Below, one piece after another: positions 16,625-44,884 of a stretch of DNA of 64,000 nucleotides (its first letter is position 1; each line of letters opens with the position of its first letter). The position numbers and the translations under genes are program-made. The DNA is from Perna viridis. Taxonomy: Eukaryota. The notes beneath the pieces were generated by a model. It was given only the letters and a program-made list of their open reading frames with translations. It did no database searches and had not been told where the DNA came from. The DNA lies in assembly GCA_037379345.1 (NCBI GenBank), contig CM074511.1, positions 66,718,862 to 66,782,861 on the forward strand, in the 5' to 3' direction.

Positions 16625-17415
16625 ACTTCTATATATGTACATACTTGTCCATATATACACATACTTTGTCTATTTATGCAAATATTTGTTTATATGCACA
16701 TATTTGTTTATATGCACATACTTTTTCTCTTTATGCATATACTTTTTCTCTTTATGCACATTCTCCATGCAGGTCCGGGTGTTGAAGAATAGGCCTGCAG
16801 CAGCGCTAAGTTCGTCGTAAAAGGCGACTAAATAGTGCTCAGAACCCTAGCCGGGGGCTAGGGCGCTCTGCCCACAGAGCAACTGGAATGTGTGCCCCAG
16901 GAGGTGGAATGGGGTACCCCTGGTGTGTTACATGCTGGGGTTGACAGTGGCAATCAAAATTTGTCGACCCCATTGTCCTTGTGTCCCATCCCTTTTTCAT
17001 TTCATCATCATTTCATGTTCATTGTCTGAATATACCTGAAATATTGCTGCTCGGACGTTAATCCCCAACAGACAAACAAACAAACTCTTTATGCACATAC
17101 TTTGTCTTTTTATGCAAATATTGTCTATATGCACATACCTTTCTCTATATGCACATGCTTGTTCTATATATGCACATACTTTTTTCTATATATGCACATA
17201 CTTGTCTATATATGCACATACTTTTTTCTATATATGCACATACTTGTCTATATATGCACATACGTTTTTCTATATATGCACATACTTGTCTATATATGCA
17301 CATACTTGTCTATATGTGCACATACCTTTCCCTATATGCACATGCTTGTTCTATATATGCACATACTTTTTTCTATATATGCACATGATTTTTCTCTATA
17401 GTTTTTCTATATATG
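16625..17415. repeat. Subterminal tatatgcacatac minisatellite of the family 1 transposon, interrupted by a SINE; inverted counterpart at 20155-20290
   Basis: Many short units built on ctatatatgcacatac. Confidence 0.9.
16762..17084 (+). mobile_element. SINE with structured non-tRNA head, internally deleted copy
   Basis: 14-bp TSD ctctttatgcacat (16748-16761 and 17085-17098) and a ggacgttaatcccc(aaac)n tail. Homologous to 40549-41062 but missing the central part. Confidence 0.85.
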
Positions 17416-37757: not shown

Positions 37758-38120
37758 CCCGATCGCGAGGTCAGCGTGCTAGCCTCGAATGCGGAAGGTC
37801 GTGGGTTCGGTCCAAGGCCTTGCTAAACCGAAGACTGTAAAATTTGTACATGCTGCTTCTCCGCCATGGGCTTGGCATTAAAGAGTAAGAGCAAAGGCTG
37901 TTTGTTTCGGAGTCAGAATAATGTGTCCGAGTAAGGTAGTATGTCTTCCTGCCGACTACTACTTAGTATCTTATGAGTTAGCATGTTAAATATCGGACTC
38001 AGCGTATCGGTTTAGTACAAAGCAGGGTTTAATAATCAATTATTAACATGCAGTCGTCCTGAATATGCATATAAATTGGCCGCTGGACGGTAAGCTACAA
38101 GTAGTCACTGACTCACTAAT
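37758..38120 (+). mobile_element. tRNA-derived SINE (Meta/MESC-domain-like) nested in the family 2 transposon
   Basis: tRNA-like head with B-box-like gggttcggtcc, central gactgtaaaatttgtacatgctgcttctccgcc...gcattaaagag, (cact)n-like tail, and 8-bp TSD attagtcg (37750-37757 and 38121-38128). Confidence 0.75.
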
Positions 38121-38428
38121 ATTAGTCGGACAATACAAAGAAAACCATGGCAGTTAATGTTTTGATGATATATCGAAATTGTGACTTTGTAAGCTTCTGA
38201 TATATAAGCAGACTTATTTACTTGATCGTGAATAAACATAGCTACATCTAGTATATCGGAGAAATTTTTTCTTCTGAATAATCTAAAACTAGCCAACAGT
38301 CTTTTAAGGTGACACAAAGATATGGAAATTCCATGTTTCTCGTGTAAGATTTCCACTATTTCCTTGTAGTTAAGACCAAGATGAAAATAAACAAAAATAA
38401 GCTGATTCCTTTCTTGCATTGCATCCAT
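38105..38428 (-). pseudogene. Truncated N-terminal (DNA-binding) part of the family 2 transposase in the right inverted arm
   Basis: The first 66 aa are nearly identical to 31153-31350. The frame continues HDQVNKS and then runs into unrelated sequence. Confidence 0.85.
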
Positions 38429-39087
38429 TTCTATACATGTAAAAGTGAAGAAGTTATATGAGGAGCAATACGTTTAATGCTTATCACGAATTCTAGCGTT
38501 AAATTTCCTCCAACGCTTGACTATGCATCAACAAGTGCTAGATTTTTAATCTACAGCGCTTTTTATCTCTATTATCAAACTTTGAACCTACAGCGCTGGA
38601 CTTTTTAAATTACAATCTCTTATCTCTGTAAGACCAACAGGGCTCCGTACATTCGTAATCAGAATGGTGAATATTAATCAAAGAATTTAATGTTAACAAT
38701 TTTTAACAACAAGCTTGACTTTATATTAGTTTGATATCGTCTCCGGTTCTTTCCTTTTATCTTATCCTATTTTTGCAATTTTAGGCGTAAAAATTCAAAC
38801 ATTCGATATAAATTGATTCAGTACATGAGTATTTTGATATATAACACTATATGACGCATTTATGACGCATTTATAAGGCAACAACGATTGTATGGGAGAT
38901 GTATTGCCACTCATTATGGACATCGTTATATTGAGCAACAAAACTCGAGAAGTCGTGTATGTGTTTTCAATTTTATAGAATATTTCTGCTTGTGTGTTTC
39001 GTTAGTATTGACATGCAAGTAACCAATGGTTGAACTCACAAACCTTTTTAACAAGAGAAACTAGTTTACACTTCAAGTGATGAAATA

Positions 39088-39583: not shown

Positions 39584-39753
39584 ACGACCCCAGCATGTAA
39601 CATGCCTAGGGGTACCCCATTCCACCACTTGGGGAACACAACCCAGCTTCTCTGTGGGCAAAGCGTCCTAGGCCCCGGCCAGGGTTCTGAGCACTATTTA
39701 GTCGCCTCTTACGACAAGCTTAGTGCTGCTGCGGGCCTATTCTTTTAACACCG
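39584..39753 (-). mobile_element. 5' head fragment of the structured-head SINE (divergent copy)
   Basis: The minus strand reads ggtgttaaaagaataggcccgcagcagcactaagcttgtcgtaagaggcgactaaatagtgct. A piece of the SINE 3' region abuts it at 39765-39800. Confidence 0.8.
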
Positions 39754-40548
39754 GCACCAGGATTAAATGAACATGAAATGATGATGAAATGAAAAATTGG
39801 AAGTCACGCAAGTCTCATGTTACAAATTCTGATATGTAGATATACAAAATTGGTAGGTATGTAGATTATATTGAGTAGCATAGACTTAATTAAATGTTAA
39901 ATACTAGTTAGTGTACATTTGATGTATGTGACCTGCGACACATACATGCATAGCATTAAAGCTATAAAATGTATAAAAAATGAGACTTTCTGGCTCCTCC
40001 CACTCACGTGATCGGCGGAACGACGTTTTTCTGGTATGCGTAAATTAATCATGGCCGCCACCATAGATACGATATAAACAAATTGCGATTACGTATCCGG
40101 TTAATCTTTTTTTTTTTTTTTGCTCTTTTGTTTCGTTTTCACCTGAATGAAATAAAAAATTATGTAAACCAAATAACGATTTTGTTTGTATTTTTTTCAC
40201 GGTCATATATATGCAAATCCCAAATCTCGTTCAGATTTGAATCATTATCAGTTTGCAGACGACTTCCCCTGTTATTTCAGTCATGTCGGACTCGGAGCCA
40301 GAGTGTCCGTCACAATTTAACATAAACTGGTCCCCACTTAAAGAAATTGAAGCATTACAAAATGATAAATCTCTTGAAGAGACAAATGACCAGGAAACTG
40401 TTATGGTCTTGGATTTATTACTGCCTATACCCCAAGATAATGAATCGGAGGAACACTACAATATAGATCTGCCCATACAACTGCCTCCTGTTCTTCAAAA
40501 ATCTCAAACAAATATTTCAAATCCCAAAGAAACTAGTGCACAAATTTC

Positions 40549-41062
40549 GTTTGTTGTTTGTTTGTTTGTTGGGGTTTAACGTCCGAGCAGCAATATTTCA
40601 GCTGTATTCAGACAATGAACATGAAATGGATGATAAAATCAACATGAAATGAAAAAAAAGGATGGGTCACAAGGATAATAGGGTAGACAAATTTTGATTG
40701 CCACTGGAAAAAGGGGGGATGGGTAAGGTCGGGCAATTTAGCCTCCTGTTGCGGAGCGCAAAGGTTCCTATTCCTATCGAATACCACAGCAGGGTTCTTT
40801 AACGTGCGAGGAACGTGGCATCTTTCCCAACACGGTGCACCACTATGGTTTGCGGTCAGGTTTTCCGTATTATAGCCTGACAACCCCAGCATGCAACACG
40901 CCAGGGATACCCCATTCCACCACCTGGGGCACACATCACAGTTGCTCTGTGGGCAGAGCGCCTAGCCCCCGGCTAGGTTTCTGAGCACTATTTAGTCGCC
41001 TTATACGACAAGCTTAGCGCTGCTGCAGGCCTATTCTTTTAACACCCGGACCTGCACGGGGC
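40549..41062 (-). mobile_element. Full-length 514-bp SINE: structured non-tRNA head, Deu/Nin-like central domain, (AAAC)n tail
   Basis: 12-bp TSD tgcacaaatttc (40537-40548 and 41063-41074), central gcacgttaaagaaccc motif, and 3' end ggacgttaaacccc(aaca)n. Confidence 0.9.
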
Positions 41063-42014
41063 TGCACAAATTTCACCCCTGAACTCTACTGCCATATACC
41101 AAACAGAAACAAGTCAGCTTCCACCTTCCTCGCGAAATTCAAAACTTTAATGTTCTTAAAATCGACTTTACAACATTCAAAATATTTGTATTTATTGTTC
41201 ATTTTACTTATTTGTCTCTTGGAATTGAATAAATTTTGATACATTGCTTATTTTCTTCAAACAGCTTTGACGGATTATATGGTGCGGATTGAATTTCAAT
41301 GTTTACTGAGTCATGCGCCATGTGTACTAATTTTTTTTCTTCGGGTTGAACGATCGGGGCTCCTCAGGTGATATGCATTTTAAAATTCATTTTAAAAATG
41401 TTCACATGCACAAGACTATTAATATAACAGGATAAAAACAATATAGATACATTGTCGAAAATTATTGAAGATATGTGTATTCGGCTTGGAACGGGGGAAA
41501 TAGCTCGGCGGAGCCACGCATTTCCTACCCGTTCCGTCGCCTCATCACATATCTTCAATAATTTTCGACAATGTACTTATATTGTATATCCAAATTACGA
41601 ATGGTATGTAGGACAATGCAAAACATGTCATTACCTTTTTTAAAAGGCTTAAATTCACTAACATCCACATATTTATTTTTACTGCCAACACCCATTTTAC
41701 AGGCAATATAAAAATGATAATGTCTCAGGTGCTTGCAGTATGCCTCTAAATAAGGTAGAATGTTACAAACGATCAATGTATTACACTCGGTTTTATAAAG
41801 ATATCTTGAATAAATATCGAGAGTTAAAAGGGATAGAAAATTTATTTTAATTCTCATTTATCTACATCCCTCTAAAGGAATGCACGCATATTCACAGCTT
41901 GAATCAAACGCGGATGTAATTTAAAATGTGAAGATTGCGCACTAAAGTAAATGTGTTCAGACGCATAAACTAGATTTCCGAGAAACTATCGTGGACCGTC
42001 TCTTTGAACACAAA

Positions 42015-42222
42015 ATGTCGTCTGCGGTGGCTATAGGAACATTTCTGCTTGTTGCTTGCTTTATTATGCAATGTGTTGGAGTAGCAACAGATTACTGGAT
42101 GGTTGTGTCAGTTTTTACAGGGTCAGTGAAATCACACGCTGGATTGTTCAAGATGTGCTACGAGGTTCTTTCCGTGAAATCATGTGTCCTATATATCACC
42201 TACAGTGAAACTTTTCGGAATA
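42015..42222 (+). CDS. Claudin/PMP22/EMP-superfamily tetraspan membrane protein, coding exon 1
   Basis: TM1 followed by the W...GLF..C...C signature (ATDYW...HAGLFKMCY...SC). Donor gtaagt at 42223, phase 1. Confidence 0.9.
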
Positions 42223-44884
42223 GTAAGTACATTTTTTCATTGAAATTGAAACTTTAAACAAAGACATTGTATTCCATTTTGCAAAATTTATTGTTACATT
42301 ATAAATGTACACCAATTTAAAAGATACAAATGGTATGTATTTTATTGGACAGACATAGAACCAACAGGCTTTAGTAGAAATAAGTATCCTAATATCAAAT
42401 TCAAGATACTTCAGAAGTACACAAACTTTGCCATAAATCACCTTATTGTCGTAGCTCATGTTATATATACCGTCTTTTTCTGTTTGTTTCAATTTTTAAA
42501 TTGTAAATTGCACTTCAGTCTAGATATGTCATTATATGTATCGCTCTATAACACAGAAAAGAAGGGAGGATTATTGCGGGGCAAGACTCATGGCCAAAGT
42601 TCTAAACTAGGAATCCAGTTTACTTCAAAACGTTTGTAATGAAAAATAAAAGTTCAGAATTTAGATATAACAATTGGAAGATGATCGTGGATTTTATCTC
42701 CTAGCTTCCATAAATTGCCCCCAAATAAGATTTAAGTTGGTCTTACTAACTTATGCGTGATTGTGTTGTTCCGTTTCTAGTTTTTAGAAACTATAATTAC
42801 TGTTTATGCGGATAGTGTTATGCAATTTATGAATTAACTTGCCAAACAAAGTTATAGATATTAAACACTGATATTTTTGTTTGTGTTTCTTTACAATTAA
42901 TGATGTTCTATATTAAGATAGACCGTGAATGCAGTAGTCGGTTTGCACTGCTGTGGCTACTTCTTGATTCAGGGGTCTCATGAAATCTTGTTCTGTAATT
43001 TGTTGAAAAAAAAAACGAAAGCCCATTGAGTCCATAAAAAAAATCGCATAATTAAAACTCGTTACTTTACGTAATGTAATGTAATAACGAGAAATATTAT
43101 ATAAATATTAATAAAAATTTCCATTCTTGATGAAAAGACTTGTTCAAAAATTGTCAGAGACCGATATTTTATTGTTATTTTTTTTCAAATTTTTGTCATT
43201 TAGTTGAGCTATTCCTTTTGTATATGTAGCAGTTTCCTTACTGCCATGGTGGTCATTATGTTCATGTAAACTTTTCATTGAAAAGTGGACCTATTTAGCG
43301 TACTTCATTTACTTATATTAAAGCTTATATGATTATGAAGTTGTCGCTGGATAGCTGTAAAATATTTTGTTACTTAGAAAAGCTACTACTTTATATTTAG
43401 AGCAAATTATAGAAAAAAAAAACAAAAAACAAAAACAAAAACAAAAAACATTAAATAGTCCAAGTGTCAAAATACAGGAGGACAGTTATTTCGTATTCTT
43501 CTTCTTTTATATATGAACAAACAAGACAAAGGTTTCGCGTTAATTTGCGATAGTATTGCGTTTAGGTTACAGACCACCAATTCAACCAATGAGCATTTGG
43601 AACGTACGCAAAAATAGTCCTACGCAGAAATTACCCCTGTTCCTCATAGTGCTGTGAAAAAAGTTCTTATCTTAATTAAAAAAATTTAAACAGTTTCTGA
43701 AAGGAAAAACATTTCTGTACATTTTATATGTGCATTTTGCTTCTTGTGATGTGAAGCCTAATCTCCATAATGATTTTTAAATATACCCCTATCTTGGGAA
43801 AACACTGGGATTTCCCATGCTATTTATAGACCCTTCACTTCCGGTGACTAGTACTGCACTGCAAGTCTGCTAACCCCACATGCCATTCTGAGGATTGTGA
43901 GCTGACATATGTAGAATCATGCTGATATATAGTCCTCTGCAGGTTAAAGTTAAGGTAAAGTCCAGAGAAGCCATTGAATATTGTGAAATTAGCATAGAAG
44001 CCTATGGGAAGTGGAATTAGTGGTTTCTAGCCTTTATATCAAGTTTGGCAAAGTAAACGTTGTTATAAAAAAACTACTTATCCATTCATTTATTTTTCCA
44101 CTTCCACACAAAACTTTAAATAAGAACAAAACTGCACCATATGTGACCGACAAAATTAATCGGCAATATTCCCGACTTGCGGACCAACATTTTGACAACA
44201 TTTATCTCCCTTTGGAGTAGGTATCTATTCGGAACACGTAAGGTTTTCCATCCGATATCGACGATACTTAAGAAAATCTCGAAAGTCAAAAGGGAATTTC
44301 TCGTTCTACTGACCCTGCCATAAATTTTCTTTACTCGGGATACAAATGAAAATCATCCTTGTGTAACCCACCAATAAAATGAAACACCCTGTAAATTTTA
44401 GAAACACCGTTGTGTTTATCTGCTGGGGATTCCATTTTCATTCGAGTTACCTCTTCTTTCTGCGCCCGTATCCGAACATCGATTAGAGAGACTTCGAAAT
44501 TATACCTGCTCTTACGGGAGGTAACTCTGCAAAAACAGGATAAAATATGGCTGCATCCCGAGCTCCGCAAGTAGGGAATAAATCCTGAAAGATCTTCATT
44601 TTCACATGCATGAAGTTTGAAATCATTACCTGAACATCAACTAACATGTATGTGCATAACTGCATTATGCGCCATTATTCAACAATCATTATATGGAAGC
44701 CATTTCACATAATCGATAAAAAAAAAATTAAAATGTAAAATTAAATTTGGACTTAAATCTGAATATAAAAGAATTGTTTCTCAAATGTAGATGAATTAAA
44801 GTGATGGAGTTGGGGTCAACTGATCCTTACCTTTTTGGAAAGGGCCATATGAAACATATTGAATTAAAAACAAGAGAGTAACAG

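What the first reader, a model, noticed from the sequence alone, without database searches (positions are those of the whole stretch)
40860..41062. SINE with a precise 5' end and a structured, non-tRNA head (candidate new RNA motif or ribozyme)
Seen: the two TSD-bounded copies (40549-41062 and 16762-17084) begin at the same nucleotide (GCCCCGTGCAGG / TCTCCATGCAGG), yet no tRNA, 5S or 7SL head and no A/B boxes are visible. The head folds as helix TGCAGGTC/GGCCTGCA, with a possible pseudoknot CCCG/CGGG (intact in this copy only) and an A-rich linker. Next, stem AGCGCTA/TAGTGCT (AGCACTA in the 39584-39753 copy, a G-U to A-U change) encloses an AGCTT/TAAA internal loop and a GTCG/CGAC hairpin whose loop varies (TATAAGG, TAAAAGG, TAAGAGG). 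Hairpins CCTAGCC/GGCTAGG and GCTCTG/CAGAGC follow. Known: some non-LTR elements define their 5' ends with HDV-like or twister ribozymes, but this head fits neither consensus as I read it. Inference: 5'-end definition by self-cleavage, exonuclease blocking or an unusual internal promoter.
Basis: partly seen in the sequence, partly recalled or inferred. Interest (0 to 1): 0.72.

Follow-up and report, generated by a model that had tools for sequence, protein, structure and literature searches.

The report
Knotted RNA head shared with viruses
This abundant jumping element starts with an 80-base stretch, earlier described only as a presumed promoter, whose pairing pattern is conserved as a knotted RNA fold in other animals' jumping elements and in the tails of unrelated RNA viruses, and which likely sets the element's starting point by blocking RNA-chewing enzymes.

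Summary
In detail: a ~515-base SINE (at least 8,821 copies) with a sharp 5' end and no tRNA head. The head is known as a sequence: the 'LP' (LINE-promoter) head of Matetovici 2016, untested and described there without a fold. Here it is shown to be a conserved RNA structure: an H-type pseudoknot (all 7 pairs of its main stem change compensatorily across 18 sequences), then a stem with a near-invariant 19-base hairpin core. The same fold lies just behind the last stop codon in 7 RNA-virus contigs (twice in tandem) and between genes of one large DNA virus, which a DNA promoter cannot explain. It also occupies the slot in I/Nimb-like LINE 5' UTRs that holds an HDV-ribozyme-like fold in this genome's own LINE. 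It fits no Rfam family, no HDV descriptor and no xrRNA class. Best reading: an exonuclease roadblock that trims read-through transcripts to unit length (0.45); self-cleavage is the main rival (0.30). Neither was tested. The scan noted this motif before on other DNA (e1-8075267); the module swap and the junction statistics are added here.

The parts
40549..41062 (-). Full-length LP-SINE copy (514 bases)
   Evidence: family of at least 8,821 head matches and 9,474 tail matches
40984..41062 (-). Conserved LP head, 79 bases: pseudoknot domain plus stem/hairpin domain
41061..41062 (-). Two unpaired 5' bases; first base (G) is the modal start of copies
   Evidence: G at this place in 72% of 123 copies; same register in three other families
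41045..41060 (-). P1 (41057-41060 with 41045-41048), loop-1 T (41056) and 5' strand of P2 (41049-41055)
   Evidence: P1 87.5% of cells paired, 2 of 4 pairs with two-sided change, one C-G pair invariant
41025..41044 (-). A-rich loop 3 ending in invariant AGAATA (41032-41037) and 3' strand of P2 (41025-41031)
   Evidence: 7 of 7 P2 pairs with two-sided change; loop 3 takes insertions of over 100 bases in other families
40984..41021 (-). P3 (41015-41021 with 40984-40990) enclosing an internal loop, P4 (41006-41009 with 40995-40998) and the 7-base purine-rich loop (40999-41005)
   Evidence: P3 sequence differs between families and still pairs in the per-family parse; P4 invariant but partly fixed by my search patterns
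40944..40977 (-). Two family-specific hairpins behind the head, not conserved in other LP-head elements
   Evidence: two subfamilies differ by a paired gain of one base pair in the first hairpin (83 and 21 of 109 matches)
40792..40807 (-). Body word shared with Nin-type SINE bodies of molluscs
   Evidence: seen by eye in supplement passages of PMC4758252; domain assignment not tested further
40652..40712 (-). Internal T5 and T8 runs ahead of the tail (would stop RNA polymerase III)
   Evidence: T5 or longer in 133 of 142 full-length copies
40549..40602 (-). LINE-type tail and (CAAA)n repeats
   Evidence: partner LINE not found
41063..41074 (.). Target-site duplication, 5' copy
40537..40548 (.). 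Target-site duplication, 3' copy
16762..17084 (+). Second copy, internal deletion of about positions 205-374, P1 decayed, inside a minisatellite
39584..39758 (-). Third, older copy lacking the first stem strands and the 3' half, preceded by a piece of SINE 3' body (39761-39796)

Best explanation
The 79-base head is a conserved pseudoknot-plus-hairpin RNA fold that likely works as a roadblock to 5'-to-3' exoribonucleases, so that host read-through transcripts would be trimmed to a unit-length SINE RNA starting one or two bases before the knot. Steps: (1, shown) copies start in a fixed register at the foot of stem P1; (2, shown) the stems are kept by compensatory change, so selection acts on RNA pairing; (3, shown) most head-containing reads in one RNA run continue upstream into unrelated flanks, so the SINE is largely transcribed as a passenger; (4, inferred) decay from the 5' side (XRN1/XRN2 type) stalls at the fold, the hairpin core docking on the pseudoknot to brace it; (5, inferred) the protected RNA is copied by an I/Nimb-type LINE enzyme through its tail. 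In viruses the same fold would yield a short non-coding 3' fragment, as known xrRNAs do.
For: Location: in 7 of 7 RNA-virus contigs that hold the fold (6 distinct viruses; RdRp or capsid families by Pfam for 5 of the 6) it is on the coding strand 5-123 bases behind the last stop codon and 90-184 bases from the contig end, twice as tandem copies. 3'-UTR position and a stop 'precisely at the base of P1' are xrRNA traits (PMC12397905, sections 4, 19 part 1, 26); tandem duplication as an xrRNA trait is recalled from flaviviruses. Cutting there would detach the viral 3' end (inference). Covariation: score 0.356 against 0.164 +/- 0.020 shuffled and at most 0.157 when slid; RNAalifold finds P2 and P4 unaided. 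Fixed start in four families from different hosts. Loop 3 tolerates long insertions while AGAATA stays next to P2. RNA run X21: 494 reads with loose ends at 41060-41063 against a depth of about 610, and no pile of molecule ends. No polymerase III boxes, internal T runs.
Against: No nuclease assay exists. The fold matches none of the three xrRNA classes or coremin as described, and a plain H-type knot does not by itself make a ring round the 5' end (knowledge). The RNA run shows no accumulated fragment starting at the head (a fragmented library is poorly suited to show one). The slot it fills in LINE 5' UTRs is otherwise filled by an HDV-like fold, and the known 5' modules of LINEs are ribozymes. 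The spread of 5' junctions does not differ from that of the HDV-like LINE (20 of 72 against 5 of 28 with extra bases, p = 0.44). All four families start with a purine, as polymerase II starts tend to.
Confidence: 0.45

Rival explanations
1. The head is a self-cleaving ribozyme of a new class, possibly a rewired relative of the HDV-like fold, that cuts just 5' of position 1 and frees the element from read-through transcripts.
For: Module swap: two LINEs with the LP head (L419, L196) and this genome's LINE (L336 family; ORF1 41% identical to L419's, E 1.7e-60) share blocks of the downstream 5' UTR (E 5e-6 and 5e-5 for L419) but the latter begins with a fold that fits an HDV descriptor (0 of 300 shuffles fit) and starts at base 1 of its 7-bp P1 in 23 of 28 copies. 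The two heads share two words (TTGTCGT, GACTAA) at the same places inside the same enclosing stem; in the HDV-like head these are the active-site loop and the strand with the catalytic C. The core is invariant where my patterns left it free. Ribozymes occur in UTRs of linear RNA viruses (PMC13725137, abstract and section 13).
Against: The LP head fails the HDV descriptor in 3 of 3 heads tried: no P3, no P1 strand behind the loop, and the base equal to U20 varies. The covariance model of the LP head does not match the HDV-like LINE head. Viral copies lie behind the last ORF, whereas the ribozymes of PMC13725137 mostly precede ORFs. Most reads run through the site uncut. My HDV descriptor was written after seeing the LINE head and allowed one mismatch in P3; no homologues were found to test it by covariation.
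Confidence: 0.3
2. The head is an internal RNA polymerase II promoter as proposed in 2016, with the RNA fold doing a second job (as Pr77 of L1Tc is both promoter and ribozyme); the precise end is a transcription start.
For: Published proposal (PMC4758252 section 10); position at LINE and SINE 5' ends; purine at position 1 in four families; precedent of a dual element (PMC3185411 passages).
Against: A DNA promoter cannot explain RNA-virus copies; stem sequences are exchanged freely while pairing is kept; no pile of starts at position 1 in the RNA run.
Confidence: 0.17
3. The fold is a binding site for translation factors, ribosomes or a replicase/reverse transcriptase (like a cap-independent translation enhancer), and the sharp end has another cause.
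For: A short invariant hairpin core and a 3'-UTR position in tombus-like viruses resemble such enhancers (recalled); the DNA-virus copy lies about 190 bases before a long ORF.
Against: Does not explain the fixed start at the foot of P1 in non-coding SINEs; the virus groups and LINE clades involved share no protein.
Confidence: 0.08

Closest known systems
LP-SINEs and the 'Nimb-17 homology' head (Matetovici et al. 2016, PMC4758252; sections 9 part 1, 10, 11 part 1 and supplement parts 1-2 read)
   Same: About 70-base LINE-derived head in place of a tRNA head, shared with Nimb-17_LMi, I-3_DR and RTE-9_CPB; duplications, tandem-repeat tail; the scallop heads in Fig. S2 align by eye over the whole head, including the GTAAGAGGCGACTAA core, and can form P1, P2 and P3 with other sequences.
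   Different: The paper proposes a promoter and gives no fold for the head in what I read; viral copies are not mentioned there. Figure 3 (the LP consensus sequences) is not held, so this family could not be compared with the named LP families.
Exoribonuclease-resistant RNAs: flavivirus classes 1 and 2, plant-virus class 3 (PMC12397905), coremin (PMC10520033, passages)
   Same: Compact pseudoknot at the 5' edge, 3'-UTR position behind the stop codon, boundary at the base of the first stem.
   Different: No three-way junction with double pseudoknot; not a P1/P2 stem-loop closed by the 3' end with a T-loop; not the two small hairpins of coremin; found in retroelements; resistance untested.
HDV-like ribozymes at LINE 5' ends (R2, L1Tc, RTE; PMC3185411 and PMC6765202 passages, PMC5786205 passages)
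   Same: Same slot and same precision of 5' ends; two shared core words with the HDV-like head of this genome's LINE.
   Different: Strand order of the nested double pseudoknot is absent; descriptor test failed.
Twister variants of Perere-3 (PMC8501958, passages); pistol and hatchet ribozymes (Rfam models)
   Same: 5'-terminal structured RNA next to the duplication; an A-rich linker along a short first stem recalls pistol (recalled).
   Different: No Rfam match at E up to 10 for the window or up to 5 for five viral loci; no run of A at the junction.

Membership tests
LP-SINE | 5' head homologous to the first ~70 bases of Nimb-17/I-3/RTE-9 LINEs | tested here: met
   By-eye match to the 'Nimb-17 homology' block of Fig. 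S2; the same head found at the 5' end of two I/Nimb-like LINEs (L419, L196)
LP-SINE | Short, non-coding, duplications directly at the ends, tandem-repeat tail | tested here: met
   median 493 bases to the tail word, tails (CAAA)n 111, (CAAT)n 25, mixed 6 of 142; duplications in 72 of 123
LP-SINE | Promoter activity of the head (proposed, not shown, in the paper) | not testable with these tools
   needs reporter and cap mapping
tRNA/5S/7SL-headed SINE | Small-RNA head with A and B boxes | tested here: not met
HDV-like ribozyme | Strand order P1-P2-P3-L3-P3'-P1'-P4-J4/2-P2' with 7-bp P1 | tested here: not met
   0 fits in 3 LP heads; the LINE head of this genome fits
HDV-like ribozyme | Self-cleavage leaving 5'-OH | not testable with these tools
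   RNA run shows mostly uncut read-through, weak evidence
Twister, twister-sister, pistol, hatchet, hammerhead | Match to the family model | tested here: not met
   Rfam 15 scans
xrRNA classes 1-3 and coremin | Class-specific secondary structure | tested here: not met
   fold compared with descriptions; no Rfam match
xrRNA (functional definition) | Blocks XRN1 without proteins | not testable with these tools
   needs in vitro assay
xrRNA (functional definition) | Ring around the 5' end | not testable with these tools
   needs a structure
xrRNA (functional definition) | Typical place: start of viral 3' UTR or between ORFs, coding strand | tested here: met
   7 of 7 RNA-virus contigs and 1 DNA-virus locus

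The most novel reading that the evidence does not exclude
A new class of 5'-end-forming RNA (nuclease roadblock or ribozyme) with its own fold, interchangeable with and perhaps descended from the HDV-like ribozyme at LINE 5' ends, that has moved between LINE clades, SINEs of several animal groups, RNA viruses and a DNA virus, and lets a promoterless SINE reach about ten thousand copies by being carved out of host transcripts.
Probability: 0.6. Interest if true: 0.88.

Novelty: new variant of a known kind. Interest (0 to 1): 0.74.

Why it matters
SINEs are defined by a small-RNA head that supplies a promoter. If this head instead makes the 5' end by RNA processing, there is a large class of SINEs that needs no promoter, and a known but unexplained LINE 5' sequence gets a testable function. 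Either main outcome is new: the first xrRNA in cellular retroelements or a further class of natural self-cleaving ribozyme. An 80-base RNA and two standard assays decide it.

Tried and rejected
Rfam: nothing relevant for the window stretch, five viral loci or the LINE head. DNA search of the own genome with the head returned nothing because common words are skipped; patterns were used instead. Four patterns meant to find another family or a LINE with this head in the own genome gave only mutated SINE copies in the 95 loci examined of 600 matches; a LINE with the LP head or with the SINE's tail was not found, which is no proof of absence. A tandem array on C15 that joins the head to LINE coding sequence is a nested insertion, not a LINE 5' end. 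Looser viral patterns mostly gave chance hits in phages: of 62 loci with a 15-base core, 6 passed my pseudoknot parse, 5 of them RNA viruses and 1 a false positive; one true degenerate copy was missed; the other extra hits lack the knot, and the nine of these chance hits given to the model scored at most 16.9 bits against 43.8 for an unseen viral copy. One viral pattern and two patterns for the HDV-like head found nothing. No match in 50,697 phage records. The 5 hits in prokaryote assemblies look like eukaryotic retroelements carried along in the assemblies, so I do not count them as bacterial. No RNA holder was listed among indexed runs; one raw RNA run was laid. The idea that the first G is a copied cap was weighed: another family has A there and G does not pile up. 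Literature: ten searches; the core words were found in no relevant main text, and 'LP-SINE' only in the 2016 paper; subscription papers, Repbase/Dfam notes and most supplements are not covered, and Ruminski 2011 is not held.

Full report
1. What is there. On the minus strand, 40549-41062 is a 514-base element between 12-bp duplications, ending in (CAAA)n. A 26-base word of its head occurs 8,821 times in the 723-Mb genome and the reversed control never; a 30-base tail word occurs 9,474 times. There is no tRNA gene in the window, no A or B box, and 133 of 142 full-length copies carry a run of five or more T before the tail, so polymerase III transcription is unlikely. Rfam gives nothing relevant.

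2. The 5' end. All 31 head matches in the first 30 loci start at the C run, with unrelated flanks except for a few duplicated loci. Anchored at the tail instead, 81 of 126 copies reach positions 1-4 and 45 are truncated at scattered places. Of 123 copies with head and tail, 72 had a detectable duplication; the element began 6 bases before the conserved T in 38, 3-5 in 14, 7-9 in 19 and 16 in 1; the base at -6 is G in 72% and the base before it is random (these loci include pattern-picked ones, and a few head-tail pairings may be wrong). Three families from metagenome contigs start in the same register (A in 69% of 42, G in 82% of 17, G in 91% of 11). Long 5' carry-over is rare, so RNAs that are copied have a defined end.

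3. The head is a published sequence. Matetovici et al. 2016 (PMC4758252) describe mollusc SINEs whose first ~70 bases match the 5' ends of Nimb-17_LMi, I-3_DR and RTE-9_CPB, name them LP ('LINE promoter') SINEs and say that the promoter function needs experiment. The scallop heads in their Fig. S2 align by eye with this head and share the core. In the sections read they give no fold. The sequences of their Fig. 3 are not held. The host here is probably a mollusc (inference from these modules).

4. It is an RNA structure. With representatives chosen by me, one per family, plus viral copies (18 rows, aligned by MAFFT without a structure; families with long loop insertions and two copies of L136 left out), the 7-bp stem P2 shows two-sided changes at 7 of 7 pairs, P1 at 2 of 4, and the covariation score is 0.356 against 0.164 +/- 0.020 for shuffles and at most 0.157 for slid partners. 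RNAalifold finds P2 and the hairpin P4 unaided. P3 pairs in only 47.6% of cells at a fixed register because its position shifts between families; a per-family parse, which is biased towards pairing, finds it in most. P4 never varies, and my patterns partly forced that; where patterns left parts free, true hits kept them. The fold is: P1 5' strand, one T, P2 5' strand, P1 3' strand, a linker ending in AGAATA, P2 3' strand, then P3 enclosing an internal loop and a hairpin with a 7-base purine-rich loop.

5. It is in viruses. Eight scans of the viral collection found the full fold in 7 RNA-virus contigs (6 distinct viruses) and one 212-kb DNA virus. Five of the six RNA viruses have Pfam RdRp or capsid matches; L130 has none and looks like an RdRp only by eye. 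In all of them the fold is on the coding strand 5-123 bases behind the last stop codon and 90-184 bases from the contig end, with tandem copies in L130 and L136. Chance matches to the core in phages lack the knot, and a model built from the alignment scores an unseen viral copy at 43.8 bits and the chance hits tried at 16.9 or less. A DNA promoter cannot account for these copies.

6. It swaps with an HDV-like fold. This genome holds an intact I/Nimb-like LINE family (clade judged from domain content, no tree). Its 5' end fits the HDV strand order (0 of 300 shuffles fit; descriptor written after seeing the sequence), and 23 of 28 copies with a duplication, of 53 heads, start at base 1 of the 7-bp P1. 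A related LINE with the LP head (L419; ORF1 41% identical) shares the downstream 5' UTR blocks, and L196 shares them more weakly. So two different folds fill one slot, which points to one job: making the 5' end. The two heads share two short words at matching places within the enclosing stem; common descent is possible but unproven, and the LP model does not match the HDV-like head. The scatter of 5' junctions is alike for the two (p = 0.44), so it does not separate cutting from blocking.

7. RNA reads. In one raw RNA run (about 19% read), the element is covered about a thousand-fold on both strands, about 2:1 towards one direction, which in most stranded libraries would be the sense strand. 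At the head, 494 reads run on into mixed flanks against a depth of about 610, and no place shows many molecule ends. Most head-bearing RNA is thus uncut read-through. This fits a passenger RNA and speaks mildly against fast cleavage; it gives no positive sign of a blocked-decay product, which such a library would show poorly.

8. Mechanism. Shown: fixed start, conserved pairing, viral 3'-UTR copies, shared slot with an HDV-like fold, read-through transcription. Inferred: how the end is made. I put exonuclease blocking first (0.45) because cutting behind the last stop codon would detach the viral 3' end, while xrRNAs sit there and stop the nuclease at the base of P1 (PMC12397905, sections 4, 19 part 1 and 26). 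Self-cleavage (0.30) is favoured by the LINE slot and the invariant core, and ribozymes do occur in RNA-virus UTRs, though mostly before ORFs (PMC13725137, abstract and section 13). A promoter with a second RNA role (0.17) and a factor-binding site (0.08) remain.

9. Known or new. As an element it is a new member of the LP-SINEs. As an RNA it fails the tests for HDV-like and other Rfam ribozymes and for the described xrRNA classes, which lowers membership, not likeness of action. Ten literature searches found no description of the fold or of the viral copies; subscription papers, repeat databases and most supplements were out of reach. Papers seen only as search listings are not used as evidence; PMC10294476, PMC11481361, PMC5786205, PMC8501958, PMC6765202, PMC10520033 and PMC3185411 were seen as passages. 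Added here are the high-copy SINE context, the junction statistics with an internal control, the swap with an HDV-like fold and the read-through evidence.

Noticed in passing
L336:1699-1850 (G000:C8:23536000+), also L333-L352, L438-L477: A young, intact I/Nimb-like LINE family (endonuclease, reverse transcriptase, RNase H) begins with a fold that fits the HDV-like ribozyme order with an unusual first C-G pair and a G-C swap in the small pseudoknot; no Rfam match; copies start at its first base.
   Followed up: partly
L132:2480-2556: A 212-kb DNA virus carries the LP fold between genes, on the coding strand, about 190 bases before a long ORF and near an NAD-dependent DNA ligase gene.
   Followed up: partly
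L170, L178 and related metagenome loci: SINE-like families in which loop 3 of the pseudoknot has grown by 50 to over 100 bases of simple repeats while both stems' ends are kept.
   Followed up: partly
L415-L419: Five prokaryote assemblies contain eukaryote-type SINE or LINE pieces with this head, probably host DNA left in the assemblies; L419 holds a LINE 5' end with ORF1.
   Followed up: partly
L065-L068 (G000:C1:9835984-9837514) and G000:C15:5527144-5572571: Head-to-tail SINE array with a 504-base period, and a roughly 3-kb tandem unit of nested SINE and LINE pieces repeated about 15 times.
   Followed up: partly
window 41946-42257 (+): Probable first coding exon of a claudin/PMP22-like gene about 900 bases from the SINE's 5' end (weak Pfam hits below cut-off).
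   Followed up: no
window 40241-40548 (+) and 38105-38473 (-): The SINE interrupts a short open frame of unknown kind; a weak Clr5-domain fragment lies nearby, possibly a decayed DNA transposon.
   Followed up: no
L134, 3' UTR behind the motif: A further hairpin with a core-like loop, possibly a decayed second copy; the model did not score it.
   Followed up: no
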